The notes under the pieces were generated by a model that searched no databases, was not told where the DNA came from, and worked only from the letters and a program-made list of their open reading frames with translations. Positions 1 to 63,749 of a DNA stretch of 64,000 bases are shown piece by piece (the stretch's first letter is position 1; each line of letters starts with the position of its first letter). This stretch comes from an uncultured Dehalococcoidia bacterium (lineage in GTDB: Bacteria > Chloroflexota > Dehalococcoidia > Lucifugimonadales > GCA-2712585). Made by a program: the position numbers and the translations under genes. The stretch lies in the NCBI GenBank assembly GCA_964439905.1, contig CAYTPK010000025.1, positions 1,987-65,986 on the forward strand. Reading direction: 5' to 3'.

Positions 1-704
1 GATTCTATATACTCTATGGTGGTACTGTCGAAACCGACGGCCCGCCAGGAGCTAAAGCAATAGGAAGTGCCCTTGAATCTCTAGGCCAAAAGGTTATCTA
101 CCTAACGGATCGTTACTGTAAACCGATTATGGATGCTCTAGCAAGCCCCACAGAACAAACCCTTGAATTCCCGGTAACTAATGCTGATAAAAGCAACCAA
201 TTTGCTCGCGAATTCCTTGAAGACATTCGACCTTCATTATTGATATCTATAGAAAGATGTAGTCCTTCATCGGACGGGATTTATAGGAATATGTTGTCCA
301 AGGACGTATCCGGATTCACCGCCAAAATTGACACGTTATTTGATATTTTCCCCCATTCTATAGGCATTGGAGACGGGGGGAACGAAATTGGCATGGGTAA
401 GTTGCAAGATGTAATACCAAATCACCCCAAATTACCGCAACAACCTGCTGCAACAGCGACAGATCAGTTACTTATTGCCAGCGTTTCAAATTGGGGAGGA
501 TGGGGATTAGTCGCAGGCCTCTCCAGCATTACAGGGAAAAAATTGCTGCCCTCTATAGAAGATGAGCAATACAGATTGAACCAATGTGTCGAATTAGGAT
601 TGGTAGATGGTTTCACAGGGGAGGTAAAACCATACGTCGATGGATTCAGCTCAGAAGAGTACACAATGCCACTCCGGGAATTGCACGAATTTTTAGAGAG
701 ATAA
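1..704 (+). CDS. DUF4392 / D-glutamate cyclase-like protein (5' end outside window)
   Basis: The frame is open from base 3 (FYILYGGTVETDGPPGAKAIG...) and runs into track ORF 129..704. Motifs ETDGPPGA and GIGDGGNEIGMG are present. Confidence 0.5.
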   Translation, partial: FYILYGGTVETDGPPGAKAIGSALESLGQKVIYLTDRYCKPIMDALASPTEQTLEFPVTNADKSNQFAREFLEDIRPSLLISIERCSPSSDGIYRNMLSKDVSGFTAKIDTLFDIFPHSIGIGDGGNEIGMGKLQDVIPNHPKLPQQPAATATDQLLIASVSNWGGWGLVAGLSSITGKKLLPSIEDEQYRLNQCVELGLVDGFTGEVKPYVDGFSSEEYTMPLRELHEFLER

Positions 705-727
705 GGTGCAGAAACAAGACTTTCCCC

Positions 728-2326
728 TTAAACTCCCTTAAGCTCTAAGCTTTTTACTTCACATGTCTCAAGGTTCATCATTCTTACAAGATGGTTGTTG
801 GTATCAGCGACAAAAAGGCTTCCTCGACTCAATGAAATATCACCTGGCTCGTATACCTGTGAATCAAGCCCCGTGCTATTCCTAAATCCAAATATCCCAC
901 TTCCTAATATGGTTCGCACTTGGCTGGTCGCTATGTCCAATATCTTGATCTTATGATTATAGGTATCAGCGATATATATGTTTCCATCATAATATTCCAC
1001 GCCCATTGGATGTTGCAAAAGTGCATTCGCGATGTCCCCATCTTCATCGCCAAAGACAAAAAGTCCCTTACCAATTAAGGTGCGAACATATCCTTGCCCA
1101 TCGGCAGGGAACCAACGAACTGAACTAGTCTCGCTGTCAACAAAGAAAATATTTTTGCCATCTGTGGTAATACCGCTAGTTTGAGCAAGTTGGGCCTCAG
1201 ACAACGTATCGTCCAAGATCCCCTCTCGACCAGTACCGACATAAGGAATGATTTTATTTTCCGTCTCTTCTAAGATCCATATTTGATGTGAACCCGCCAT
1301 TGCTATAAAAAGAGTGGTCCCGATAAGAACTAAATCCCATGGCGAATTTAAACTGGTTGTTTTAGTTTCTCCTCCAAGACTGCCCCATGATCCCTGTTCT
1401 CCAATACCCGCCATCGTGGTTACAGTCCTTCTAACAAGATCGACCTTTCTTATTGCATGGTTTTCAGTGTCCGCTATATACAGCCATTCTCCATTCAAGG
1501 CTAAACCTTGAGGGTGATCAAAAGTCGCTGACGTGTAATCGCCGTCTAAAAAACCTGGTGAAGATCCACCGATAATGCTATGAGTTTCCCCATCAAAATC
1601 TGTTATCAAAATACGATTGTGATTTGTATCAGAAATATACAGGCGCGAATTAACAGAATCTGCTAACAGCTTACCAGGGAATGCCAAAGCGTTGTCATGG
1701 GTATTTACCACTTTTTTGTGAAGAGGCTTCGTGTCTAATATTCCACTCTGCGTATACGCATGTATCATGTTTTTCAACAAATCATCAAAAACCTTATATG
1801 GCAATTCACCTTCGTGTTTACCAATAACTTTTCCTATTGGATCGATAAATATTAAAGTAGGCCAAGCCCTTATCGCATAATTTTTCCACACCAAAAACTG
1901 ATTATCATTCACAACAGGGTGACTCAATTCATTTCTTAAAACCGCTTGTTTAAGATTAGCGGTTTCCATTTCCCCGGTAAATTTAGCTGCGTGCACCCCG
2001 ATAACAACCAATTCTCGGTGATACTTCTCTTCTAGCTTCCGCAACTGCGGAAGAAGGTGAATGCAATTAATTCAACAGTAGGTCCAAAAATCTAAAATCA
2101 CGATCTTTCCACTAAGCTCTCTAAGCGTTAGTGGTTTATCTGTGTTGATCCATTCTAAGCCCTTTGGAAATTCCGGAGCCGTAATTTGACTCTTAAACCT
2201 TGCTTCAGACACACTGTCCCTCCCAGATGCAGAATAGCCCCTATTACCTAGTACCAAGGCTTCCCTAATTGTAGTCCAAATCTTCTCTGTTTGGTCCATA
2301 AACAAATTGAGAGGATAAACACTCAC
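728..2326 (-). CDS. Thioredoxin-fold + NHL-repeat protein (NHLRC2-like), predicted selenoprotein; TGA at 2072-2074 read as Sec; 532 aa
   Basis: Track ORFs 2072..2326 and 728..2044 share a frame and are separated by TGA plus 9 sense codons. The junction reads [19 protein letters not shown] (CCINC motif with U). A hairpin follows. The C-terminal part has repeated NHL blades (ADTxNHxIR). Confidence 0.7.
2036..2053 (-). promoter_or_regulatory. Candidate bacterial SECIS stem-loop
   Basis: The mRNA reads CUUCCGC-AGUU-GCGGAAG, a perfect 7-bp stem with a GU-containing tetraloop. It starts 18 nt 3' of the in-frame UGA. Confidence 0.5.
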
Positions 2327-2470
2327 ACATCTTTTTGGATTCCAGTCGATCGAAAATTAACCTTAATTATATTGATTACTATCGCAAAACTTTACAGAAT
2401 GCATATATGAAAATGGCATAGTTTGACTTTGTGAAGTAATATTTATCCATATTCTTAATGGAATGCATTT

Positions 2471-3193
2471 ATGCGCAACAAAATCCTGGCCAACTTTAAA
2501 TTAGGCGTTAAGTCTATCGAGGACGGATCAACGATTATGATCCCAGGCTTTGCTGGTCCCGGAACACCGAGAAATCTAATATCCGCCCTTATAAAACAAG
2601 GCGCCAAAAACCTAACTGGAATATCTAATCACCCTGGGGCTGGTCCTTATGACGATCAATTAGACCTCGGCGATCTAATCAAGAATGGACAAGTAAAAAA
2701 GATGATATGTTGCTTTACCGCTGCTCCACACCCTTCCCAAGCTACAGACTTCGAAATCATGAACGAGAACGGACAGATAGAAGGTGAAATCTTGCCTCAG
2801 GGCACTCTCGCAGAAAGAATTCGGGCTGCAGCTTCTGGTTTAGGTGCATTTTACACACAAGCCGGAGTTGGTACAGAGCTGGCAAAAGGCAGGGAACGTC
2901 GGATTATAGATGGGAAAGAATATCTTTTAGAATATCCTCTACACGCCGATTACGCATTTATACGTGCCCATAGGGCGGACACATTTGGAAATCTCCAATT
3001 CCGTCTTTCTCAGCGCAACTTCAATCCAATCATGGCGATGGCTGCCAAGACAACTATCGTAGAGGTTGAAACTGATATCGTATCAGTAGGTGAAATCGAT
3101 CCAGATCAAATTCACACGTCAGGCATATTCATAGATCACATCATTAGAATCCCGGACACTGGTATATGGGATCATCCCATATATAGAGCCTGA
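2471..3193 (+). CDS. Family I CoA-transferase, subunit A (3-oxoacid CoA-transferase-like)
   Basis: 240 aa with family resemblance, immediately followed by the B subunit. Confidence 0.8.
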   Translation: MRNKILANFKLGVKSIEDGSTIMIPGFAGPGTPRNLISALIKQGAKNLTGISNHPGAGPYDDQLDLGDLIKNGQVKKMICCFTAAPHPSQATDFEIMNENGQIEGEILPQGTLAERIRAAASGLGAFYTQAGVGTELAKGRERRIIDGKEYLLEYPLHADYAFIRAHRADTFGNLQFRLSQRNFNPIMAMAAKTTIVEVETDIVSVGEIDPDQIHTSGIFIDHIIRIPDTGIWDHPIYRA

Positions 3194-3218
3194 TTTTTCA
3201 CGTCGAGGTGTACACGCG

Positions 3219-3887
3219 ATGACCCAGAAAACTAAACTTAATCGTCAGCAAATTGCCAACAGGCTTGCGAAGGAATTTGAAGATGGTTGGTTAGTAAATC
3301 TAGGAATTGGCATTCCTACACTTTGCTCAAACTATGAACAACCTGGTAAAACTATCATTTACCATTCCGAAAACGGCGTGATTGGATATGGCCCTATACA
3401 AAAAAAGGGAGAGGAGGATATCCATCTTGTCAACGCAGGAGGACAATACATAACGCTGATACCCGGCGCCTCTATCGTAGACCACGCCGACTCATTTGCC
3501 ATTATCCGCAGTGGCCGCCTGGATTTGACAGTAATGGGGGCATACGAAGTAGCAGAAAACGGAGACTTCGCCAATTGGAAAACCCTTGGCAGAAAAGGCG
3601 GAGGGATAGGAGGAGCAATGGATTTAGCCATTGGAGCTAAAAGAGTGTTTTTAGGCCTACAACACACTACTCGAGATGGGACCCCCAGACTGCGCAGTAC
3701 GTGTTCACTGCCTCCTACTGCAAAAGGAGTGGCAAAATTGGTTTGTACAGACCTCGGGCTTTTCGAAATTACAACCAATGGATTCTTACTGAAAGAAATA
3801 GCTCCTGGTTATGCCCCTGCTGAGGTTCAAGCCATGACAGACGCACAGATCATCGTGTCTAATTCACTCAAAGAAATTTCGCTCTAG
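3219..3887 (+). CDS. Family I CoA-transferase, subunit B
   Basis: 222 aa. The catalytic-Glu signature SENG is present (IIYHSENGVIGYGP). Confidence 0.8.
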   Translation: MTQKTKLNRQQIANRLAKEFEDGWLVNLGIGIPTLCSNYEQPGKTIIYHSENGVIGYGPIQKKGEEDIHLVNAGGQYITLIPGASIVDHADSFAIIRSGRLDLTVMGAYEVAENGDFANWKTLGRKGGGIGGAMDLAIGAKRVFLGLQHTTRDGTPRLRSTCSLPPTAKGVAKLVCTDLGLFEITTNGFLLKEIAPGYAPAEVQAMTDAQIIVSNSLKEISL

Positions 3888-4034
3888 ATCAACACGATGG
3901 TTCCTATCTAGAGCCTGACTGCAAATCCTCATCCAAATAGCTTACTGACTTCTCCTTTCCCCTAATATTCATAGAAATGCACAAATACCATACCTGGATA
4001 AATAGCCTACAGAATTCTAGTCATATAACACCAC

Positions 4035-4063
4035 TTGACATGTATTGTATCAACTTTTAATAT
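4035..4063 (+). promoter_or_regulatory. Sigma70-type promoter of the hspR-grpE-dnaK operon, overlapped by an imperfect inverted repeat
   Basis: TTGACA (4035-4040), 17-nt spacer, TAATAT (4058-4063). The inverted repeat TTGAcA-N7-TaTCAA spans 4035-4053. Confidence 0.5.
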
Positions 4064-4110
4064 ATCTATGCACTGATCATACTATAGTCAGGATAGACAA
4101 ACGCCATATA

Positions 4111-4599
4111 ATGCAACAACATTACAATCAAACTTCCGTTGGCCCATCATTTTATAGGATATCATCCCGACTCAAGCCTCATGCTTTGGATAAGTCGTCA
4201 CATAACGAACCCCAAACCGCAGATTCAACCTCAGATTACACAACAGTTGAGGGTGTATATATTATCAGTGTAGCTGCCAGAATATTACAAATGCATCCTC
4301 AGACCCTTCGTAAATATGAGAAGTTAGGATTGATACAGCCTTCAAGAACCGTTGGGATGCTTCGTTTATATTCCGAAGAAGATCTGGCTAAGCTGAGATT
4401 GATCAGATACCTCGAAAATGACCTTGGAATGAACTTGGCAGGTGTTACATTTACACTAAATTTATTAGAACAATTAATCGAACTGGAAAATAGGTTATTA
4501 CGTCAAGCCCAAGTACAAGTTCGTAACAATCATATTGAGCATGAAATACAACAGCTTTTTCAAAGACTAAACTTGCCTTACGAAATAATAATGAGATGA
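4111..4599 (+). CDS. hspR: HspR-like MerR-family heat-shock repressor
   Basis: The HTH region YIISVAARILQMHPQTLRKYEKLGLIQPSRTVGMLRLYSEEDL matches HspR. The track ORF starts at 4045, inside the predicted promoter, so ATG 4111 is preferred. The start remains uncertain. Confidence 0.7.
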   Translation: MQQHYNQTSVGPSFYRISSRLKPHALDKSSHNEPQTADSTSDYTTVEGVYIISVAARILQMHPQTLRKYEKLGLIQPSRTVGMLRLYSEEDLAKLRLIRYLENDLGMNLAGVTFTLNLLEQLIELENRLLRQAQVQVRNNHIEHEIQQLFQRLNLPYEIIMR

Positions 4600-4605
4600 A
4601 AACCC

Positions 4606-5226
4606 ATGGGAAAAAGTAATCCAAAGGACTCTACCTCAGACCCTCGACCTGATCACTCTACGGAAGGGGAGATTGACCCTATTGTAGGTGAAGCTGCAGA
4701 AACAGATGCATCAATTTCTATAGAGGAATCGTCCCAAGAGATCGAACAACTCACAAACACCCTCCAACGTGTTCAGGCTGACTTTGTAAATTTTAAGCGT
4801 AGGTCTCAAGAAGATAAACAGGAATCGCTTAAATTTGCCAACGGACAATTAATTCTAAAAATCCTTCCCATAGTTGACGAATTCCATATGGCATTGAAAC
4901 AGTCCGACTCTGCTGATAGATCTGGGTCATGGAGAGAAGGATTTGATCTAGTCTTTAGAAAGCTACACCAAACTCTTGAATCTGCAGGCGTCACACGCAT
5001 TAAACCTTGTGGGATGCCTTTCAATCCGTTTGAACATGAAGCTCTATCTCAATTGGAGACCTCAGAGCACAAAGAAGGAATAATCATAGAAGTAATCAGG
5101 GATGGGTACAAACTTCACGATAGGGTACTGCGTCCCGCACAGGTAATAGTGGCGAAAGAAGCCTCAAATGAAAATACTAATTCAAGCAAATCTAATTTGC
5201 CGTATGAAGAAAAGGAGAACCTATAA
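4606..5226 (+). CDS. grpE: Nucleotide exchange factor GrpE
   Basis: [21 protein letters not shown] and the C-terminal GrpE fold motifs. It lies directly upstream of dnaK. Confidence 0.9.
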
Positions 5227-7124
5227 TGCCGAAGATTATCGGAATAGACCTCGGGACCACAAACTCTGTTGCAGCCGTAATAGAGGCAGGTGAACCTACG
5301 GTAGTAGAAAATGCGGAGGGTGGTCGTATTACCCCATCGGTAGTTGCAATCAATACCAAGACATCAGAACGATTTGTTGGCCAGCCAGCCAAACGTCAGG
5401 CAGTGACTAATCCAGAAAACACGATTTTCTCGGTGAAGCGTCTTATGGGACGAAAATACGACGATGGTGAAACACAAAATGCTAAAACTGTCCTGCCATA
5501 TAAAGTTGTTAAATCAACCAACGGAGATACTCATGTTGAAATGAGTGGGGAAAGTTTCGCACCTCCACAAATATCTGCAATGGTTCTGCAAAAGATTAAA
5601 CAGGATGCCGAAGCAAAATTCGGAGAAAAAATCCTTCAAGCTGTAATCACAGTGCCCGCATATTTCAACGACTCTCAACGTCAGGCCACCAAGGACGCTG
5701 GGCAAATAGCAGGGCTCGAAGTTTTACGTATCATCAATGAACCAACTGCCGCATCCTTGGCATACGGTATGGATAAGGGCACTGGGGACAGGACCCTCGC
5801 CGTTTTTGATCTCGGCGGAGGAACATTCGATATCACAATACTACAAATGGGAGGCGGTGTCTTCGAAGTGAAGTCAACCAACGGAGATACGTTTCTCGGA
5901 GGGGATGACTTTGATCAAAAGATAATGAATTGGCTGATAAAGGAATTCAAAAAAGACAGCGGAATAGATCTTAGTAAGGATCGAATGGCGCTTCAACGAC
6001 TTAGAGAGGCTTCAGAAAAAGCTAAAGTTGAATTATCAAGTGTTCTACAGACGGAGATAAATCTCCCATTTATAACCGCGGACACCAGTGGCCCTAAACA
6101 TTTGCTGATGACTCTCACAAGAGCTCAGCTCCAAGTATTAATAGAGGATCTCGTTAAGAGAACAACCGAACCATGTCTTCAGGCGATTACAGACGCTGGA
6201 TTGAAATCTACGGACATTGACGAAGTAATTTTAGTTGGAGGCATGACTAGAGCTCCAATAATCCAAGAAAAGGTTCAGGAATTGTTCGGAAGGGAACCCA
6301 ATCGTAACGTTAATCCTGATGAAGCAGTAGCTATGGGAGCTGCTATACAAGCCGGTGTATTACAAGGTGAAGTCCAGGACCTCCTCCTTCTAGATGTTAC
6401 TCCCCTCACTTTGGGGCTGGAAACTCTTGGAGGAGTAGCAACTTCCTTAATTGATAGAAACACCACCATCCCTACATCAAAAAGTGAGACGTTCACTACA
6501 GCAGCTGATAGTCAAACAAGTGTAGAAATCCATGTGGTACAAGGTGAACGCCCCATGGCAGTCGATAACAAGTCAACGGGCCGTTTTATTCTTGATGGGA
6601 TTCTCCCTGCCCCACGTGGAGTACCACAAGTGGAAGTTACATTTGACATCGATGCCAACGGCATTTTAAGTGTCTCTGCCAAAGACAAGGGAACTGGAAA
6701 GGAACAAAAAATTGTTATCCAGCCAAGCTCTGGGCTCTCCAAAGAAGAGGTGGACGAAATGGTTGGAAAGGCCACGGAGTACGCCGAAGAAGACAAACGA
6801 AAAAAACTAGAAGTGGAAACTCGCAATCAGGCTGATAATCTCGTTTATAGCGTAGAAAAAATGGTGAATGAGAACGGTGACAAACTTCCAGAAGATCTGA
6901 AATCACAAGTTGAATCCGATGTATCAACCCTGAAAGAATCTATAACTAACAATGACATCGCCGCTATGCAAAGCAATATAAACATTGTTAACGAATCACT
7001 GCAGAAGATTGGCCAAGCAATTTATTCGCAAGAAACAACACCTGACGACTCCTCGAATGCCGATCCAGAATCGCAACAAGAGGGAGATGACACAGTTGAG
7101 GGAGAATATCGGGAAGTGAACTAA
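5226..7124 (+). CDS. dnaK: Molecular chaperone DnaK (Hsp70)
   Basis: 632 aa with [18 protein letters not shown] and [11 protein letters not shown]. Confidence 0.97.
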
Positions 7125-15588: not shown

Positions 15589-15607
15589 AGGGATCACTTC
15601 CCTCTTT
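15589..15607. terminator. Weak hairpin between convergent genes
   Basis: AGGGA-tcact-TCCCT with flanking A and T runs. Confidence 0.3.
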
Positions 15608-15616
15608 ATATTGAAC

Positions 15617-16003
15617 TTACCAATGCCAGATCCGATCATGTTGATCAAAAAGATTCCCTAATTCACTCCTACTAACTAACGCGACTCCGTCTATTATCTC
15701 ACCCATACCAATCCCATGATCTTCAAGATCCTCGTAAACAGCATATACACTAATACCTGCACCTATCATTCTTTGCACATCCGCGTCTAATTTAGGGGGA
15801 TGACTCAATGGAATTCCTCCTATTACCAAACCACTAGCATCCTGACCACGGACTAAATAGTTAACTGCGTTAGCTCTCAGTAATACCGAAATGCATGCTC
15901 CCGAATTCTTGAGCATATGAGACAGCCAGAGTATGGTGTCATCCTGCTCTTCAAGAGTGCCATGGTAGGCTCGTTCCACAACAGACAATATCTTGGTAGG
16001 CAT
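15617..16003 (-). CDS. DsrE/DsrF/DsrH-superfamily protein (third gene of the cluster)
   Basis: 128 aa with the family pattern VLLRANAVNYL...VYAVYEDLEDHGI. Confidence 0.55.
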   Translation of the reverse strand: MPTKILSVVERAYHGTLEEQDDTILWLSHMLKNSGACISVLLRANAVNYLVRGQDASGLVIGGIPLSHPPKLDADVQRMIGAGISVYAVYEDLEDHGIGMGEIIDGVALVSRSELGNLFDQHDRIWHW

Positions 16004-16014
16004 CTTTTCTATTC

Positions 16015-16404
16015 CTATTTTAATCCTATAATCAAAGTATTATCACTCTCTTCAAACCATTTGAATAAGTCTGCTGGAGATCCTCTCCTCACACCATCAA
16101 TCCAATTTATCGCGCCACGCTCATCTGCACACATTCCACAGTTAATCCAATCTATGGCTCCGGTTGCTAATAGACCTGTAATGAATCTTGCAGTACTGGG
16201 ATGCTCCTCTTCTAATGCATCGGTCCCTTTAACCGGATTTGCATGGGGGGACTGATCTCTGATAGTCATATTTACAGCCCCTTCGTAAGCAAAAATGTTG
16301 ATTTTGTGCCCTTTCCTAATTGCTGCATCGGCAATTCTTAAAACCGTGGTGGTGGTTTCGGATTCGTAGGGTGCATTCATCAAAGCGATTGTAAGAACTG
16401 CCAT
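16015..16404 (-). CDS. DsrE/TusD-like sulfur-relay protein (Cys-bearing subunit)
   Basis: 129 aa. INCGMCADERG aligns with the DsrE active-site Cys region. Confidence 0.6.
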   Translation of the reverse strand: MAVLTIALMNAPYESETTTTVLRIADAAIRKGHKINIFAYEGAVNMTIRDQSPHANPVKGTDALEEEHPSTARFITGLLATGAIDWINCGMCADERGAINWIDGVRRGSPADLFKWFEESDNTLIIGLK

Positions 16405-16413
16405 ATAGGACTC

Positions 16414-16749
16414 CTAGTGCCACAAGACCTTAAATTTGGAATCTACCAACATGTCGACAAGAAAATCCATGCCTGATATTTGCACTCCATCTACAAGGTG
16501 TTGCATTTCAATCCCTCTTTCTCTAAGAGAAAATTCATCAGCCATGATTCTGATCTTACCTTGTCTAGATAGTAAAATATCCATGGGATTATTCTTGCTA
16601 GTCCGCCTCGCCACAAATACTCCATTTTGAATCAGGAACAAGGTCACTTCATTCCCTTTGTCAATCAGCTGTTCAGCTACCTGATACATGTAATCTATAT
16701 CAGCATACTCGAACGGATCTCTGGATTCGATTAAAAGATACCTAACCAT
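16414..16749 (-). CDS. DsrE/DsrF-superfamily protein (Cys-free; first gene of the cluster)
   Basis: 111 aa with VTLFLIQNGV...IMADEFSLRERGI. The stop TAG overlaps the AGGAG RBS of the next gene. Confidence 0.55.
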   Translation of the reverse strand: MVRYLLIESRDPFEYADIDYMYQVAEQLIDKGNEVTLFLIQNGVFVARRTSKNNPMDILLSRQGKIRIMADEFSLRERGIEMQHLVDGVQISGMDFLVDMLVDSKFKVLWH

Positions 16750-36390: not shown

Positions 36391-36510
36391 TCCCTGGTGG
36401 TTAGAGCGGGGTGGTCCCACCCGTTACCATTCCGAACACGGAAGTGAAACGCCCCAGCGCTGACGATACTGCCTTGGCAACGGGGTGGGAAAATAAGCCA
36501 CTGCCAGGGT
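36391..36510 (+). rRNA. rrf: 5S ribosomal RNA (no 16S or 23S within the window)
   Basis: CCCUGGUGG...GGUCCCACC...CCAUUCCGAACACGGAAGUGAAACGCCCCAGCGC...CACUGCCAGGG, followed by a T6 run (36510-36515). Confidence 0.9.
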
Positions 36511-58894: not shown

Positions 58895-60310
58895 ATGCCA
58901 GCAAAGGACATAGCTCTCATGGCACATCTAATGCGTAGGGCCGGTTTCGGGGCCAACTATGATGAGCTAGAAAAGAGAGCCAATAACGGGTACGAACAAA
59001 CTGTTGAAGAACTTCTCGATCCAGACGCACATGGTGTGCCTATATATGATGAGTATACTTTAGCTCGTTACTATCCAGATATGGAAGTACCCTCAGCCCC
59101 AGCGCTTGGAACATCTAACTTCATGTACCATCTCTATACCACGCCTAGACCTCTAGTGGAGAAGATGACCCTGTTCTGGCACATGATCTTCGCGACGGGC
59201 AATTCTAAAGTTGATAACCCACCTGAAATGTTACAGCAAATCCAGCTGTTTAGAGATCACGGGATGGGAAATTATAGGGATCTTCTAGTACGAATATCGA
59301 AAGACCCAGCGATGATCTTCTGGCTAGATAACAACCAAAACCACAAAAAAGCCCCCAACGAAAACTGGGGGAGAGAACTCCTGGAGCTGTTCTCCATGGG
59401 ACAGGGCCATTACTCAGAAGATGACGTAAAAATGGCTGCAAGGGCATTCACTGGCTGGACTATTGGTCCTAAAATCCCGAGAACCCCTTACCAAAGACAT
59501 CATTGGAGTTTTATATATAAAGACGAGGATCACGACCACTCTACAAAAAGCTTTCTCGGCCGCGAAGGAGACTTCAACGGAGAGGATATAATCCAATTTA
59601 TTCTCGAGGACGAAGCTACTCCCCAATTCATTGCACGACATCTTTATAATTTCTTTGTAGAAGACGATGTTCAAGTCCCAAGTTGGCTTGATGTTCCAGC
59701 AAAGAATCCTGATGCAGTAAACGCAATAGCAAAAACTTTCAAGGAATCCGATTTTGATATCCGAACCACCTTGCGTTTTATCCTTAACTCATCTTTCTTC
59801 AAAGATGAGTCTGCCTGGTTCGCAAAAGTTAAAAACCCAGCTGAAGTAGTCGCGGGTACGATTCGACTTGTGGGGGATTTCGCCGAACCCAAGCCCGGCG
59901 TAATGGACATGGGATTGGAAGGTGCCTATCAAGGACAAGAACTGATCAATCCTCCCAGCGTAGAAGGGTGGCACACCGGCAGGGAATGGATCGACACCGG
60001 ATCTCTAGTCCGACGGGTAAATTTCGTCGCAGACATGTTAGGTAACACGGATTTCCCAGGAGTACAATCAATCATCAACCGGATAGGGAAAAAGGGAACC
60101 CTCTCCCCTGAAGAACTAGTGGATTCATGCCTAGAACTTCTCGGAGCTATCCAAATAGACAAGGGAACTAGAGACGAACTCATAACCCATGCCAAAAGCG
60201 GAGGAGAACTCAAACGTGGGTCATCAGAAGATGACGTAGCGGCATTTGGAACCCGTGTAGCGGAAATGTTACAACTAATCGCAGCCACTAGGGAGTACCA
60301 ATTCGGTTAA
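58895..60310 (+). CDS. DUF1800-domain protein (no signal peptide)
   Basis: MAHLMRRAGFGANYDELE hallmark, 471 aa. An in-frame TAG immediately precedes the ATG. Confidence 0.75.
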   Translation: MPAKDIALMAHLMRRAGFGANYDELEKRANNGYEQTVEELLDPDAHGVPIYDEYTLARYYPDMEVPSAPALGTSNFMYHLYTTPRPLVEKMTLFWHMIFATGNSKVDNPPEMLQQIQLFRDHGMGNYRDLLVRISKDPAMIFWLDNNQNHKKAPNENWGRELLELFSMGQGHYSEDDVKMAARAFTGWTIGPKIPRTPYQRHHWSFIYKDEDHDHSTKSFLGREGDFNGEDIIQFILEDEATPQFIARHLYNFFVEDDVQVPSWLDVPAKNPDAVNAIAKTFKESDFDIRTTLRFILNSSFFKDESAWFAKVKNPAEVVAGTIRLVGDFAEPKPGVMDMGLEGAYQGQELINPPSVEGWHTGREWIDTGSLVRRVNFVADMLGNTDFPGVQSIINRIGKKGTLSPEELVDSCLELLGAIQIDKGTRDELITHAKSGGELKRGSSEDDVAAFGTRVAEMLQLIAATREYQFG

Positions 60311-60379
60311 GGGATAATCCCAAAACCTGTAACCCTTTTACTGCTAAAATAAATTAAGACTCATTATAAGGAGTACATT

Positions 60380-61504
60380 ATGGCTAAAGATCCTATACTG
60401 GTAGTCTTCCAACTAACCGGAGGAAATGACTACTTAAATACTATAGTCCCTCGACAGGAAGGCCTTTACAGAGACTACAGGAAAAATATCGTAATACCCG
60501 AGGGAGAAGAAATCCCCATAGACGACAAATACGGATTTCATCCGGAGATGGGAGCACTTAAGCCTTTCTGGGATGAGGGCAAGATGGCCCTCATACACGG
60601 CATAGGCTATGAGAACTCCCCCCGTTCTCACTTTCGATCTATGGACATATGGCACACTTGCGAACCCAATAAAGTTGGTACCGAGGGTTGGGTAGGAAGA
60701 GCCACAAAGGTAATAGATCCAGGCAAGGAAAATGTCCTTACAGCTGTTAATTTCGGGCAGGGCCTCCCCAGAGCGATGGCCATGCCAGGTGTTCCAGTTG
60801 CTTCAGTTTCAGACATAGAAAATTACGGTGTGTTGACGGGAATAAACGGAGAACAACAGCGCCAAAGAGCGCTAGAACGTTTTTCCCGCGTGTACTCACC
60901 CGCCATAGGAACAGGTCCAGTAATGGACTATCTAGGCCAGACTGGATTAGATGCTTTGAAGGGCGCTGATATCCTAAAGGTAGCCCCTGAGATGTATTCG
61001 TCATCTGTGGAATACGCAGCCACCCCACTCGCGCAAAAGTTCCGCGGAATCTCTATGGTCTTACAGGCTAATTTGGGCACGAGGTTTTTCTACACACAGA
61101 GCGCCTCCTGGGACACCCATGCTTCTCAGATGCCCGGACACAAAGGCCTGTGGCAAGATGCAGCAAGATCAGTCTCCGATTTCTTCGCAGACCTAAGGGA
61201 GCATGATATGGCAGACAACGTAGTCCTCATAATGTTCTCTGAATTCGGCAGGCGAGTCGTAGACAACGGATCAGGCACTGATCACGGTGCTGCTGGCGTT
61301 GCCTTCGCAATTGGGGATGCAGTTCAAGGCGGACACTACTCAGAATATCCATCTATGAAGACCGAAGATCTCCAAGAAGGCGATTTGGCACCAAACTACG
61401 ACTTCCGTGGTTTTTACTCCACCCTTCTTGAAGATTTTATGCATCTCGACCCGACGGAAATCGTAGGTGGTTCCTTCGAGAAGCTAAGCTTCATAAATAA
61501 GTAA
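60380..61504 (+). CDS. DUF1501-domain protein (sulfatase/alkaline-phosphatase superfamily; no Tat signal)
   Basis: LVVFQLTGGNDYLNTIVP, FSEFGRR and GTDHGAAG hallmarks, 374 aa. An in-frame TAA lies 10 codons upstream. Confidence 0.8.
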   Translation: MAKDPILVVFQLTGGNDYLNTIVPRQEGLYRDYRKNIVIPEGEEIPIDDKYGFHPEMGALKPFWDEGKMALIHGIGYENSPRSHFRSMDIWHTCEPNKVGTEGWVGRATKVIDPGKENVLTAVNFGQGLPRAMAMPGVPVASVSDIENYGVLTGINGEQQRQRALERFSRVYSPAIGTGPVMDYLGQTGLDALKGADILKVAPEMYSSSVEYAATPLAQKFRGISMVLQANLGTRFFYTQSASWDTHASQMPGHKGLWQDAARSVSDFFADLREHDMADNVVLIMFSEFGRRVVDNGSGTDHGAAGVAFAIGDAVQGGHYSEYPSMKTEDLQEGDLAPNYDFRGFYSTLLEDFMHLDPTEIVGGSFEKLSFINK

Positions 61505-61531
61505 ACGCCTAAATTACAACTTAGAATAAAT

Positions 61532-61580
61532 GGTGAGGTGAACTGCTGACATGACTGGCGGTTCACCTCACTGGCGTTTT
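61532..61580 (+). terminator. Hairpin plus T-run between DUF1501 and the first NHL gene (terminator or attenuator)
   Basis: GTGAGGTGAAC / GTTCACCTCAC forms an 11-bp stem with a 17-nt loop, then TGGCGTTTTT. Confidence 0.45.
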
Positions 61581-61611
61581 TAATCCGGGAAAATCGCACT
61601 GGAGGTGACAC

Positions 61612-62619
61612 ATGCCCTCAACTCATATAGCGTCAGGAAGAGCTTTTACGTATGCAACTAACATCGGCAAAATATCCAGGTCCGAAATAGGATTTCGCCA
61701 CCCAGTTGGTTTAACTAGAGGCAAGGACGATACCCTATATATAGCCAATTGGGGAGATGAAGCATCTCCTAACGCCCGGATCACCAAATGTTCAATTTCC
61801 TCGCAGGATTGGATCGCTGACATAGGAGCACCAGGTAATGGCCTTGGTCAGTTTTTATGGCCAGGAGGATTGGCTTCTGATGCTACTGATCGTCTATACG
61901 TAACTGACCAGGCGGACCATAAGGTAGTGATCTTCGAGAGTGACGGACAATTCGTTGGAAAATGGGGGTTATTTGGGAACGGCGACGGTGAGTTTAACAG
62001 CCCCGCGGGGATTGCACTTGATTCTAATGAAAACGTCCTAATAGTAGATTCAAAAAACCACCGAATACAAAGGTACACTAAAGATGGGAAATATCTTCAA
62101 GGGTTTGGGCAATTCGGTTCTAAAATAGGATCCCTAAACACTCCTTGGGGAATTGGGCTAGATACAAAAGATAACATCTACGTGGCCGACTGGAGAAATA
62201 ATCGAGTGCAAAAATTTAGCCCACAGGGGGACCTCTTACTCTCGATTGCCCATGCAGACACATCTGCTGATCCTTTAAATCATCCTGCCGACGTTACAAT
62301 AGACCCGGAAGGAGATATATACATCGCCGATTGGGGGAATCATAGGGTGGCAGTCTATGAACCAGACGGAACTTTTCTTTTAACATTACAAGGGGACGCT
62401 TCCGATCTATCCGCTTGGGCCAAGGCTGCCGTAGCAGCTAATCCAGATTTAGCCAAAGCTAGAGATCGTGTAAATCTCGAGCCTGAATGGCGTTTTTGGC
62501 ATCCTGTATCGATAAACATAGGTCCCGACTATAAAATCTTAATAGCGGAAGCTCAACACATGCGAATCCAGGTCTATCAAAAAGACCTTGAATACACGGA
62601 AGCCCAATTCACATTGTAG
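61612..62619 (+). CDS. NHL-repeat six-bladed beta-propeller protein, paralogue 1 (335 aa)
   Basis: Repeated blades (F..P.GIA.D....V.D..N.R.Q.F). RBS GGAGGTG. An in-frame TGA lies just upstream of the ATG. Confidence 0.8.
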   Translation: MPSTHIASGRAFTYATNIGKISRSEIGFRHPVGLTRGKDDTLYIANWGDEASPNARITKCSISSQDWIADIGAPGNGLGQFLWPGGLASDATDRLYVTDQADHKVVIFESDGQFVGKWGLFGNGDGEFNSPAGIALDSNENVLIVDSKNHRIQRYTKDGKYLQGFGQFGSKIGSLNTPWGIGLDTKDNIYVADWRNNRVQKFSPQGDLLLSIAHADTSADPLNHPADVTIDPEGDIYIADWGNHRVAVYEPDGTFLLTLQGDASDLSAWAKAAVAANPDLAKARDRVNLEPEWRFWHPVSINIGPDYKILIAEAQHMRIQVYQKDLEYTEAQFTL

Positions 62620-62741
62620 CAGTATCGATTCCTTTTAATTCATCCTACTGAGGATGAGGCCATGAAGGTGTCCACATTACTTTGCGAATTCATTCAGAAC
62701 ACGATATATTAAGACCACACGAGACCATCAAGGAGTTTGAA

Positions 62742-63749
62742 ATGCCTGTCACGCAAATAGCAGGAACCAAAGCCTTCGCTTACGTGGGTAACATTGGCCA
62801 AATCGGCGCATCTGGGCCCACGCTGCGCCACCCTATCGGACTAGCCCGCGGGAAGAATGACGTACTATATGTAGCTAATTGGGGCGTTGAAAGCAATCCA
62901 TCCACACGTATAACAAAGTGCACTATAGACACTCAAGAATGGATTCAGGACATAGGGCATCCCGAAAATGGCGACCCTACCTTTAAGTGGCCAGGAGGAC
63001 TTGCTATCAATGATCAAGAAATCCTTTTTGTTACAGATCAGGCTGATAGTTGCGTTCACAAATATTCCCCCGATGGGAAATATCTAGGCCGATGGGGAAA
63101 CTTCGGGGCTCTTGATGGAGAACTAAAAAGACCAAGCGGAATTGCAGTGGATAAAGACAATAACGTATGGATAGTAGATTCTGGCAACGACCGAATACAA
63201 CAATTCGACGCCAACGGCTCCTTCCTAAGCAAATTTGGTTCGAGTGGATCAAACGATGGAGAATTTAACTCTCCGTGGGGAATCAGCATTGACAATAACG
63301 GCACACTGCTGATAGCAGACTGGGGAAACAATCGTGTTCAGCGGATGGATACAAACGGCCAAACCTTACAAACCATTGGAAGGCCAGGCAACCAAAATGG
63401 CGAACTAAATCATCCCAGCTTCGCTATAGAAGATAAAGACGGCGACATTTATGTTGCAGATTGGGGTAATCATAGAGTACAAATCTTTGAGGCCGACGGT
63501 ATTTACATGGCCACTCTGATAGGAGATGCCAATAACTTATCAGAATGGGCAAAAGGAAAAGTAGCTTCCAATCCCGACCTGATTAAAGCGCTAGAAAGAG
63601 TTGATTTGGAGCCTATGTCTCGGCTTTGGAGTCCAACGTGTGTCCACATCGGCGATGATTACAAAATACTCATCGCAGAAGGACAGCATATGCGTGTTCA
63701 AATATACCAAAAGGATCCTTCTTACCAAGAGGCTCAATTTACACTGTAA
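62742..63749 (+). CDS. NHL-repeat six-bladed beta-propeller protein, paralogue 2 (335 aa)
   Basis: ATG 62742 after AAGGAG gives the same length as paralogue 1 and a parallel N terminus (MPVTQIAG vs MPSTHIAS). Both end EAQFTL. A candidate own promoter is TTGCGA-N17-TATATT (62682-62710). Confidence 0.8.
   Translation: MPVTQIAGTKAFAYVGNIGQIGASGPTLRHPIGLARGKNDVLYVANWGVESNPSTRITKCTIDTQEWIQDIGHPENGDPTFKWPGGLAINDQEILFVTDQADSCVHKYSPDGKYLGRWGNFGALDGELKRPSGIAVDKDNNVWIVDSGNDRIQQFDANGSFLSKFGSSGSNDGEFNSPWGISIDNNGTLLIADWGNNRVQRMDTNGQTLQTIGRPGNQNGELNHPSFAIEDKDGDIYVADWGNHRVQIFEADGIYMATLIGDANNLSEWAKGKVASNPDLIKALERVDLEPMSRLWSPTCVHIGDDYKILIAEGQHMRVQIYQKDPSYQEAQFTL

What the first reader, a model, noticed from the sequence alone, without database searches (positions are those of the whole stretch)
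728..2326. In-frame UGA at the nucleophilic Cys of a CCINC thioredoxin motif: predicted NHLRC2-like selenoprotein split in two by the ORF track
Track ORFs 2072..2326(-) and 728..2044(-) are in the same frame. Only TGA (2072-2074) and 9 sense codons separate them. Read through, the junction is ...[12 protein letters not shown]-[TGA][17 protein letters not shown].... This is the CCINC redox motif of NHLRC2-type thioredoxin-like/NHL proteins, with the first Cys of the C-I-N-C pair replaced by UGA (C-U-I-N-C).

Eighteen nt after the UGA the mRNA forms a perfect 7-bp stem, CUUCCGC/GCGGAAG, with an AGUU tetraloop (2036-2053). The apical GU lies about 28-31 nt from the UGA. This is the geometry expected of a bacterial SECIS.

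TGA is an ordinary stop elsewhere in the window (hspR, CoA-transferase A, gcvT, gcvPA, gcvPB). The event is therefore site-specific recoding rather than a variant genetic code. The full-length product would be 532 aa. I cannot tell from here whether a Sec form of this family has already been catalogued.
Basis: partly seen in the sequence, partly recalled or inferred. Interest (0 to 1): 0.8.

Follow-up and report, generated by a model that had tools for sequence, protein, structure and literature searches.

The report
Selenocysteine form of SOQ1/NHLRC2-like thioredoxin–NHL protein
The apparent stop codon that splits this gene almost certainly encodes selenocysteine at the redox-active site of a bacterial relative of human NHLRC2 and plant SOQ1; the same recoded gene occurs in at least 90 other bacterial species, so it is a real but mechanistically ordinary selenoprotein that gene callers and the published family lists I could read have missed.

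Summary
Window 728-2326(-) is one reading frame broken only by TGA at 2072-2074, in the motif FWTYC-TGA-INC. The TGA aligns with the first Cys of the invariant C-I-N-C active site of Cys-containing homologues.

- **Conservation:** In 92 segments (88 of the scan's loci, three metagenome relatives, the window) 380-526 sense codons follow in frame.
- **Hairpin:** The hairpin 25 nt after the TGA (window 2036-2053, loop AGUU) fits the published bacterial SECIS model. It is conserved across phyla with compensatory changes and is absent from 97 Cys-form genes.
- **Selection:** dN/dS is about 0.1 on both sides of the TGA.
- **Genetic code:** TGA ends 10 of 43 long ORFs in the window, so the code is standard.
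- **Sec trait:** The same population carries a canonical Sec formate dehydrogenase about 10 kb away. selA, selB, selC and selD were not seen.

All Sec forms lack the C-terminal domain of SOQ1/NHLRC2. No paper or NCBIfam model I could search names this architecture as a selenoprotein. Verdict: new member of a known kind.

The parts
728..2212 (-). Full read-through coding sequence: 46 codons, the Sec codon, 447 codons, then stop TAA at 728-730. The predicted product is a 494-aa cytoplasmic Trx-like + NHL selenoprotein.
   Evidence: Searches give the frame. Searches give the start by comparison with L001. One search shows full-length homology to SOQ1 and NHLRC2. One search shows purifying selection on both sides of the TGA.
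2210..2212 (-). Probable GTG start codon (product begins [16 protein letters not shown]...).
   Evidence: in L001 an in-frame stop lies upstream; the gene caller's N-terminal piece in L001 and L003 is 46 aa. Cys homologues start at the same place (MSEDYVGKVTAPEFP). This is an inference, not an experimental result.
2218..2223 (-). Shine-Dalgarno-like GGAGGG, 5 nt upstream of the GTG.
   Evidence: Read directly from the sequence. L001 has AGGAGG in the same place.
2072..2074 (-). In-frame TGA, the predicted selenocysteine codon (Sec47) and the first residue of the U-I-N-C redox motif.
   Evidence: It aligns with the invariant first Cys of C-I-N-C in Cys homologues. It is conserved in orthologues and in 120 species genomes.
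2063..2065 (-). TGC codon of Cys50, the predicted resolving Cys of the U-x-x-C motif.
   Evidence: Invariant column C79. Alignment columns 10-12.
2036..2053 (-). bSECIS hairpin CUUCCGC-AGUU-GCGGAAG. It has a 7-bp stem, an apical loop with G at position 2 followed by U, and the loop starts 25 nt after the UGA. It overlaps the codons for L-P-Q-L-R-K.
   Evidence: Searches give dG -10.4. One search gives the published model criteria. One search shows covariation: 5 of 7 pairs have compensatory changes and 0 of 500 shuffles reach the observed score. One search shows the Cys-form genes lack it.
1763..2188 (-). Thioredoxin-like (Thioredoxin_8 / TlpA-DipZ-like) domain, about residues 9-150, including the conserved WPT cis-proline motif.
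   Evidence: PF13905 E=2.9e-14 and PF00578. DipZ Trx domain E=5e-24; invariant W146 P147 T148.
731..1690 (-). Six-bladed NHL beta-propeller domain, about residues 175-494. The protein ends here, with no C-terminal domain.
   Evidence: NHL E=6.5e-21; the SOQ1 NHL-CTD construct 7djm and the NHLRC2 propeller 6g7w both match residues 172-494; the CTD is absent.

Best explanation

**Recoding.** The UGA at 2072-2074 is read as selenocysteine. As the ribosome reaches it, the hairpin 25 nt downstream (2036-2053, apical loop AGUU) is bound by SelB-GTP carrying Sec-tRNA(Sec), which outcompetes release factor 2. This step is inferred from the standard bacterial mechanism.

**Chemistry.** Sec47 replaces the N-terminal nucleophilic Cys of the C-x-x-C motif (U-I-N-C). 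It sits at the start of helix alpha-1, in the cleft facing the propeller. It would attack an oxidised substrate held by the propeller and form a selenenylsulfide with Cys50, which is then re-reduced. The substrate and the reductant are unknown.

**What is shown.** These points are shown: the conserved in-frame TGA, the Cys at the aligned site in homologues, purifying selection on both halves, a covarying SECIS-type hairpin specific to the TGA forms, and a second canonical Sec gene in the same population.

For: 1. **Conserved TGA with intact frame.** The TGA is in frame with a Trx+NHL coding sequence across it. It is conserved in syntenic orthologues at 78-80% aa identity. One scan found it in 120 species-level genomes; 92 segments in all (88 of those loci, the three metagenome relatives L001-L003, and the window) have 380-526 further in-frame sense codons.
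2. **Aligned Cys.** The TGA aligns with the invariant first Cys of CINC in 12 aligned Cys homologues; 114 of 115 motif-bearing hits read CC-INC and one reads GC-INC.
3. **Selection.** dN/dS is 0.08-0.16 upstream and 0.14 downstream, at dS 0.6-1.0.
4. **Hairpin fits the model.** The hairpin satisfies the published bSECIS model: loop 3-9 nt, stem 4-16 bp, G in the first two loop positions, 16-37 nt spacing, dG <= -7.5.
5. **Covariation.** On 88 aligned Sec-form genes, 91.1% of cells are paired against 81.7% in shuffles (0/500). There are 61 double-change cells against 18.6 expected (0/500). The covariation score is 0.325, against 0.09-0.14 for slid controls. Compensatory changes include CCG/CGG to CCC/GGG, which forces Arg to Gly in the protein.
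6. **Negative control.** 97 Cys-form genes at equal GC have 2.95 of 7 pairs and dG -2.4. 91 Sec forms have 6.4 of 7 pairs and dG -11.0. The encoded peptide is PQLR in 68 of 91 Sec forms but in 1 of 115 Cys forms.
7. **Standard code.** TGA ends 10 of 43 long ORFs in the window.
8. **Second Sec gene.** L126 is 99.96% identical to the window. Its tail overlaps L130 and L132 at about 99%, and these carry FdhA with NCSRT-TGA-HAPSVAGL. All 120 best FdhA N-terminal homologues stop at the same site.
Against: - selA, selB, selD and tRNA-Sec were not found in the 64-kb window or in about 25 kb of flanking contigs.
- There is no experimental evidence of Se incorporation.
- The single-sequence hairpin is not statistically unusual: 3.75% of random TGAs do as well, and the z-score is -0.45.
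- The link from the window to FdhA runs through a 488-544-bp overlap at 99% identity between metagenome contigs from different samples, not through one contig.
- About 10 of the 92 long Sec-form loci lack the canonical hairpin.
- The aligned sequences are related by descent, so the shuffle control overstates significance. The slid and Cys-form controls are the more reliable ones.
Confidence: 0.9

Rival explanations
1. The UGA is recoded through the same hairpin, but Cys (or a Sec/Cys mixture that depends on selenium supply) is inserted. This could happen through SelB delivering a mis-charged or dedicated tRNA.
For: From my own knowledge, not verified here: SelB-dependent Cys insertion at Sec codons has been reported for some bacteria. 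Cys is the residue at this site in most family members, so a Cys product would work. No selD or selA was seen.
Against: The paper I checked for this (PMC5424206) does not describe it. The same population keeps a Sec-type FdhA. If only Cys were wanted, keeping a TGA and a costly hairpin across phyla, at the price of Arg-to-Gly changes in the protein, would be hard to explain, because a one-base change to TGY would suffice.
Confidence: 0.05
2. Translation ends at the TGA. The locus then makes a 46-aa peptide and, by re-initiation at TTG 2044, a separate 438-aa NHL protein, as the ORF track suggests.
For: Gene callers annotate it this way in every assembly. A TTG lies 9 codons after the TGA.
Against: The split would cut a thioredoxin fold through its active site. 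The 9 codons between the TGA and the TTG (I-N-C-I-H-L-L-P-Q) are conserved as protein, including the invariant I, N and C. dN/dS in that stretch is 0.06-0.08. The TTG sits inside the hairpin and is not conserved as a start; L001 and L003 are called from an ATG elsewhere. Full-length Cys homologues are single proteins.
Confidence: 0.03
3. The gene is a pseudogene, or the TGA is a sequencing or assembly error.
For: An in-frame stop in a conserved active-site codon is what a nonsense mutation (TGY to TGA) would look like.
Against: The same TGA is in four independent assemblies of this population, in orthologues with dS 0.6-1.0, and in 120 species genomes. The downstream frame is intact for 447 codons, with dN/dS 0.14.
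Confidence: 0.01
4. The organism uses a variant genetic code in which UGA is a sense codon (Trp or Gly).
For: None beyond the in-frame TGA itself.
Against: TGA ends 10 of 43 long ORFs. Other same-frame TGA junctions are simply neighbouring genes: hspR|grpE and Cupin|PIG-L. Homologues have Cys at the site, not Trp or Gly.
Confidence: 0.005

Closest known systems
Arabidopsis SOQ1 lumenal region (PDB 7DJJ) and human NHLRC2 (PDB 6GC1)
   Same: [quoted passage not shown] The FWTYC-x-INC active-site motif sits at the N-terminus of helix alpha-1, facing the interdomain cleft (PMC6107167). The WPT cis-proline is conserved.
   Different: The second Cys of CC (the first Cys of C-I-N-C) is Sec. The protein has no C-terminal beta-stranded domain, which in SOQ1 carries a second redox Cys pair and receives electrons from the Trx-like domain (bioRxiv 10.1101/2024.11.01.621559). 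It has no membrane anchor, HAD domain or signal peptide, so it is presumably cytoplasmic.
[quoted passage not shown] All are in Table 1 of PMC13188914.
   Same: It has the UxxC motif in a TlpA/redoxin-type thioredoxin fold, a bSECIS directly downstream of the UGA, and widespread Cys homologues. The mechanism of recoding and the expected chemistry are the same.
   Different: Table 1 gives each of these families a single thioredoxin-fold domain identifier and names no NHL propeller. This protein is a two-domain fusion with a 320-residue NHL propeller. The table of 119 families names no NHL architecture, and no NCBIfam selenoprotein model reaches its cutoff. I could not retrieve the representative accessions (HEU0032618.1, MGB1650493.1) to rule out that one of them is this protein.
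Short DipZ-like U-I-N-C redoxins found in the same scan (EFWTYG-U-INC, 106-121 codons after the UGA, many with signal peptides)
   Same: They have the same FWTYxUINC motif and a hairpin at the same distance, often the identical CCCGC-AGUU-GCGGG.
   Different: They have a single domain and appear to be exported. Some use a GGU triloop hairpin instead.
E. coli fdhF/fdnG-type Sec insertion (SelB plus bSECIS)
   Same: A stem-loop lies immediately 3' of the UGA within the coding region, with G/U in the apical loop at a fixed distance.
   Different: The stem is a short, perfect 7-bp helix with a 4-nt AGUU loop. There is no bulged U, and the sequence is unrelated.

Membership tests
Bacterial selenoprotein gene (Sec-UGA plus bSECIS) | In-frame UGA with conserved coding sequence on both sides | tested here: met
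   dN/dS is 0.08-0.16 upstream and 0.14 downstream. In 92 segments, 380 or more sense codons follow the TGA.
Bacterial selenoprotein gene (Sec-UGA plus bSECIS) | Cys-containing homologues with Cys aligned to the UGA | tested here: met
   the first Cys of CINC is invariant in 115 of the 115 motif-bearing homologues.
Bacterial selenoprotein gene (Sec-UGA plus bSECIS) | Hairpin meeting the bSECIS model: loop 3-9 nt, stem 4-16 bp, G in the first two loop positions, 16-37 nt from the UGA, dG <= -7.5 | tested here: met
   loop AGUU, 7 bp, 25 nt spacing, dG -10.4 kcal/mol.
Bacterial selenoprotein gene (Sec-UGA plus bSECIS) | The structure is conserved by selection (covariation) and is specific to the UGA forms | tested here: met
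   5 of 7 pairs are compensatory and 0 of 500 shuffles reach the score. Cys forms have 2.95 of 7 pairs and Sec forms 6.4 of 7.
Bacterial selenoprotein gene (Sec-UGA plus bSECIS) | The genome has the Sec-decoding trait (selA, selB, selC, selD) | tested here: inconclusive
   None of these genes is in the window or the held flanks. Indirect support: a canonical Sec-FdhA in the same population, linked by contigs overlapping at 99%. BSepDB reports Sec-rich Dehalococcoidia.
Bacterial selenoprotein gene (Sec-UGA plus bSECIS) | Selenium is actually incorporated at the site | not testable with these tools
   This needs 75Se labelling or mass spectrometry.
SOQ1/NHLRC2 family | [quoted passage not shown] | tested here: met
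   (PF13905, PF01436); full-length alignment to 7DJJ and 6GC1.
SOQ1/NHLRC2 family | CCINC motif at the CxxC position | tested here: met
   the motif is C-U-I-N-C, the same motif with Sec at the second position.
SOQ1/NHLRC2 family | C-terminal beta-stranded domain (CTD) with a conserved Cys pair | tested here: not met
   the protein ends at the last NHL blade; 0 of 87 long Sec forms have a CTD, against 36 of 75 long Cys forms. Short CTD-less Cys forms also exist (P0007, P0096), so this is a two-domain subfamily of the family.
Catalogued UxxC TlpA/redoxin-type selenoprotein families | UxxC in a TlpA/redoxin thioredoxin fold | tested here: met
   AhpC-TSA, Redoxin and ResA-like matches. The motif is U-I-N-C.
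Catalogued UxxC TlpA/redoxin-type selenoprotein families | Identity with a listed family, by domain architecture or representative accession | not testable with these tools
   Table 1 of PMC13188914 names no NHL architecture. The accessions could not be retrieved. No NCBIfam selenoprotein model reaches its cutoff.

The most novel reading that the evidence does not exclude
This is a widespread selenoprotein family that has not been catalogued as such: the two-domain, CTD-less Sec form of SOQ1/NHLRC2. It is split by gene callers in every assembly I examined. Its natural Sec/Cys pair marks the first Cys of C-I-N-C (human NHLRC2 Cys90) as a catalytic redox nucleophile. That bears directly on the open question of whether the CCINC motif of the FINCA-disease protein NHLRC2 and of plant SOQ1 is catalytically active.
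Probability: 0.45. Interest if true: 0.55.

Novelty: new member of a known kind. Interest (0 to 1): 0.4.

Why it matters
- **Annotation.** This gene and its counterparts in at least 90 species (Chloroflexota, Gemmatimonadota, Methylomirabilota, Armatimonadota, Actinomycetota and others) are split into a small fragment and a truncated NHL protein in every gene call and assembly I examined. Neither the long nor the short Sec forms I tested (four long, three short) reach any NCBIfam model's cutoff. A dedicated model would repair many annotations at once.
- **Biochemistry.** Replacement of a Cys by Sec is a recognised marker of a catalytic redox residue (my own knowledge of Sec/Cys-pair analyses). 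The biochemical role of the CCINC motif in human NHLRC2 is unsettled: no insulin-reductase activity was found, and the authors doubted a thiol-disulfide role (PMC6107167). Recurrent Sec at this site argues that the motif is a working redox centre.
- **Architecture.** Sec forms never carry the C-terminal domain that accepts electrons in SOQ1. This suggests the two-domain form acts directly on a substrate held by the propeller.
- **SECIS and protein sequence.** The locus is a clean example of a SECIS shaping protein sequence: PQLR in Sec forms against PDLK in Cys forms.

The recoding mechanism itself is standard.

Tried and rejected
- **Single-sequence folding.** The 81-nt region gives z = -0.45, which is not informative on its own. 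The chance rate of equally good hairpins is 3.75%.
- **Rfam.** A scan of the window at gathering threshold found only 5S rRNA and tRNAs, and no SECIS family.
- **Sec machinery.** There is no tRNA-Sec in the window, in the flanks of the same population, or in the 120 genome loci. NCBIfam and Pfam scans of 30 window ORFs and 5 flank ORFs found no selA, selB or selD.
- **Other TGA-split genes.** Ten same-frame pairs were found in the window. Apart from the target, I followed up two, and both are adjacent genes: hspR|grpE and Cupin|PIG-L.
- **UGA-to-Cys recoding.** The Mukai et al. 2017 paper does not address it.
- **Literature.** Searches for NHL, NHLRC2 or SOQ1 together with selenocysteine or selenoprotein returned nothing relevant. 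BSepDB has no held supplements.
- **Structure prediction.** I did not run it, because full-length sequence homology to solved structures at E about 1e-122 already fixes the fold.
Full report
**1. The observation.** Reading window 728-2326 on the minus strand gives one open frame with a single internal stop, TGA at 2072-2074, in the context [32 protein letters not shown]. The mechanical ORF list splits it into 2072..2326(-) and 728..2044(-). With Cys in place of the stop, Pfam finds a Thioredoxin_8/AhpC-TSA domain followed by NHL repeats. Eighteen nucleotides after the TGA lies a perfect 7-bp hairpin, CUUCCGC-AGUU-GCGGAAG (2036-2053), with dG -10.4 kcal/mol.

**2. More than chance?** Not on this sequence alone. 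The 81-nt fold has z = -0.45. Of 400 random TGA triplets in the window, 42 are followed by a hairpin that satisfies the published bacterial SECIS model, and 15 have one at least as stable. The case has to be made by comparison.

**3. Comparative evidence for a conserved, translated TGA.**
- The three closest database homologues (99%, 79% and 78% identity) are all truncated at 438-442 aa. More distant full-length homologues carry Cys.
- Their contigs are syntenic with the window: CoA-transferase A/B, hspR, grpE and dnaK on one side and a GLUCM-like gene on the other. They carry the same FWTYC-TGA-INC.
- In an alignment with 12 Cys homologues the TGA falls on the first Cys of the invariant C-I-N-C. 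P0050 reads YGCINC, which shows that the redox pair is C-I-N-C and not the CC doublet.
These are mostly Dehalococcoidia and other Chloroflexota, with Gemmatimonadota, Methylomirabilota/NC10, Rokubacteria, Binatia, Thermoleophilia, Armatimonadota (including cultured Fervidibacter sacchari PD1) and others.
- The pattern did not constrain anything beyond the motif. Yet in 92 segments (88 of the scan's loci, the three metagenome relatives L001-L003, and the window) the frame stays open for 380-526 more codons, which is the Trx+NHL architecture. In 25 loci it stays open for 106-121 codons, which is a single-domain redoxin.
- Between the window and its orthologues at about 79% identity, dN/dS is 0.08-0.16 for the 46 codons upstream and 0.14 for the 447 downstream, with dS 0.6-1.0.
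- Together these results exclude a pseudogene or a read error. They also make two independent polypeptides very unlikely.

**4. The hairpin is a conserved structure tied to the TGA.**
- In most long forms the best hairpin is yyyCCGC-AGUU-GCGGrrr, with the loop starting exactly 25 nt after the UGA.
- The published consensus requires a 3-9-nt loop, a 4-16-bp stem, G in the first two loop positions (usually followed by G or U), 16-37 nt spacing and dG <= -7.5 (PMC13188914). All of these are met.
- On an ungapped alignment of 88 Sec-form segments, the 7-bp helix is paired in 91.1% of cells, against 81.7% in shuffles (0/500). It has 61 double-change cells against 18.6 expected (0/500). Five of the seven pairs show compensatory changes. 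The covariation score is 0.325, against 0.09-0.14 when the partner is slid by 1-3 columns.
- Some compensations cost amino-acid changes. CCG...CGG becomes CCC...GGG, which turns Arg into Gly (L056, L084, L119). CCU...AGG appears in L072.
- Three NC10 genomes use a different hairpin, CCAGAGC-UGGAY-GCUCUGG, at 28 nt.
- As a negative control I fetched 120 metagenome loci with TGY at the same codon. At similar GC (0.50 against 0.52), 97 Cys-form genes form 2.95 of the 7 pairs with local dG -2.4 kcal/mol. The 91 Sec forms form 6.4 of 7 pairs with dG -11.0.
- The peptide encoded by the top of the hairpin is PQLR in 68 of 91 Sec forms. It is PDLK or PELK in the Cys forms, with PQLR in 1 of 115. The SECIS shapes the protein sequence.

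**5. Genetic code and Sec trait.**
- TGA terminates 10 of 43 ORFs of at least 200 aa in the window. Apart from the target, the two other same-frame TGA junctions I followed up are just neighbouring genes. This is site-specific recoding.
- The window has no tRNA-Sec and no selA, selB or selD among the ORFs I scanned.
- Contig L126 is 99.96% identical to window 1-6710 and extends 9.3 kb past the window's left end, through futalosine-pathway genes and MTHFR to a NuoF-like gene.
- Its tail overlaps L130 and L132 at about 99% identity. These continue into a formate dehydrogenase alpha subunit of 356 aa + TGA + 550 aa, with NNVDNCSRT-U-HAPSVAGL, the canonical FDH Sec site. L001 shows the same arrangement.
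- All 120 best homologues of the FdhA N-terminal piece end at that site.
- So the population the window comes from keeps at least one canonical selenoprotein gene about 10 kb from this one. This is indirect but good evidence for the Sec trait.
- DnaK places the organism among Chloroflexota (Dehalococcoidia/SAR202-like) with no close named relative, at 72-76% identity. BSepDB lists Dehalococcoidia MAGs with 46-49 selenoproteins.

**6. What the protein is.**
- The best solved-structure matches are Arabidopsis SOQ1 lumenal domains (7DJJ, E=7e-122) and human NHLRC2 (6GC1, E=3e-105), aligned over residues 9-494. The Trx domain alone matches DipZ.
- In NHLRC2 the CCINC motif sits at the N-terminus of helix alpha-1, in the cleft facing the propeller (PMC6107167).
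- The likely start is GTG 2212, preceded by GGAGGG. The frame upstream is closed in L001, and homologues begin at the same point. The product is therefore 494 aa with Sec47 and Cys50, and has no signal peptide.
- The protein stops at the last NHL blade. It lacks the C-terminal domain that, in SOQ1, holds a second Cys pair and receives electrons from the Trx-like domain.
- This holds generally: 0 of 87 long Sec forms have that domain, against 36 of 75 long Cys forms.

**7. Mechanism.**
- Inferred from the standard bacterial pathway: SelB-GTP carrying Sec-tRNA(Sec) binds the AGUU hairpin as the ribosome reaches the UGA and inserts Sec.
- Inferred from thioredoxin-fold chemistry: Sec47 attacks an oxidised substrate presented by the propeller and forms a selenenylsulfide with Cys50, which is then re-reduced.
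- The substrate is unknown. Protein methionine sulfoxide or disulfides are candidates, by analogy with SOQ1.

**8. Comparison with what is known.**
- Mechanistically this is an ordinary bacterial UxxC thioredoxin-fold selenoprotein. Several generic families of that type are catalogued: Prx-like thiol:disulfide oxidoreductase, thiol:disulfide interchange protein, thiol-disulfide isomerase-like protein and redoxin family protein.
- None of the 119 entries names a Trx+NHL architecture.
- No NCBIfam model reaches its cutoff for the long or the short Sec forms.
- None of the database homologues carries an annotated U.
- Full-text searches linking NHL, NHLRC2 or SOQ1 with selenocysteine found nothing.
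- I could not retrieve the representative accessions of the generic families. The protein may therefore already be counted under one of them.

**9. Verdict.** It is a new member of a known kind, possibly an uncatalogued family. I rate it of moderate interest, for three reasons. It would repair annotation in many genomes. The Sec/Cys pair marks the catalytic residue of the SOQ1/NHLRC2 family, whose biochemistry is unsettled. And it shows clearly how a SECIS constrains protein sequence.

Noticed in passing
Beyond the window's left end: L130 1123-3894, L132 1067-3838, L001 19503-21329: A formate dehydrogenase alpha subunit is split by TGA at the canonical Sec site (NCSRT-U-HAPSVAGL). A GUCGCC-GGUUU-GGCGAU hairpin has its loop 18 nt after the UGA. 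The gene follows MTHFR and a NuoF-like gene, about 10.5 kb from the Trx-NHL gene in the same population.
   Followed up: partly
L010, L014, L019, L022, L024, L028, L039, L041, L042, L053, L057, L059, L066, L074, L076, L080, L086, L091, L098, L102, L105, L117 and others: A second class of TGA genes shares the same FWTYxUINC motif. These are single-domain DipZ/TlpA-like redoxins with 106-121 codons after the UGA, many with signal peptides. They have a hairpin at the same position, with an AGUU or GGU loop. The three I tested reach no NCBIfam selenoprotein model's cutoff.
   Followed up: partly
L005-L124 compared with L134-L253: The Sec forms of the Trx-NHL family never carry the C-terminal domain of SOQ1/NHLRC2 (0 of 87), while about half of the Cys forms do (36 of 75). 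The reason is unknown.
   Followed up: partly
L011 2179-2241, L049 3474-3536(-), L110: The NC10/Methylomirabilota Sec forms replace the usual AGUU hairpin with a different 7-bp hairpin, CCAGAGC-UGGAY-GCUCUGG, 28 nt after the UGA. The encoded peptide is PELDALE instead of PQLRKLE.
   Followed up: no
L061, L073, L096, L037, L054, L088, L111, L113, L079, L121: About ten long Sec-form loci lack the canonical hairpin and show only weaker or differently placed structures. They could use alternative SECIS types or be decaying genes.
   Followed up: no
window 36393-36509: A 5S rRNA gene stands alone, with no 23S or 16S rRNA anywhere in the 64-kb window. The rRNA genes appear to be unlinked in this genome.
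   Followed up: no
window 58895-63749: A DUF1800/DUF1501 gene pair is followed by two tandem NHL/ScyF-like beta-propeller proteins (61612-62619 and 62682-63749). These are NHL proteins unrelated to the finding and have no Trx domain.
   Followed up: no
window 2213-2326: The ORF track's 84-aa N-terminal piece is probably over-extended. The conserved start is GTG 2212 with a GGAGGG Shine-Dalgarno sequence. The stretch upstream of it is not conserved in L001 or L003, where an in-frame stop intervenes.
   Followed up: yes
window 15596-16728 (L125 13548-14680): Three small adjacent genes, two of them DsrE-family, lie next to an alanyl-tRNA-synthetase-like gene. DsrE-like proteins include known selenoprotein forms, but I did not check these for in-frame TGA.
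   Followed up: no
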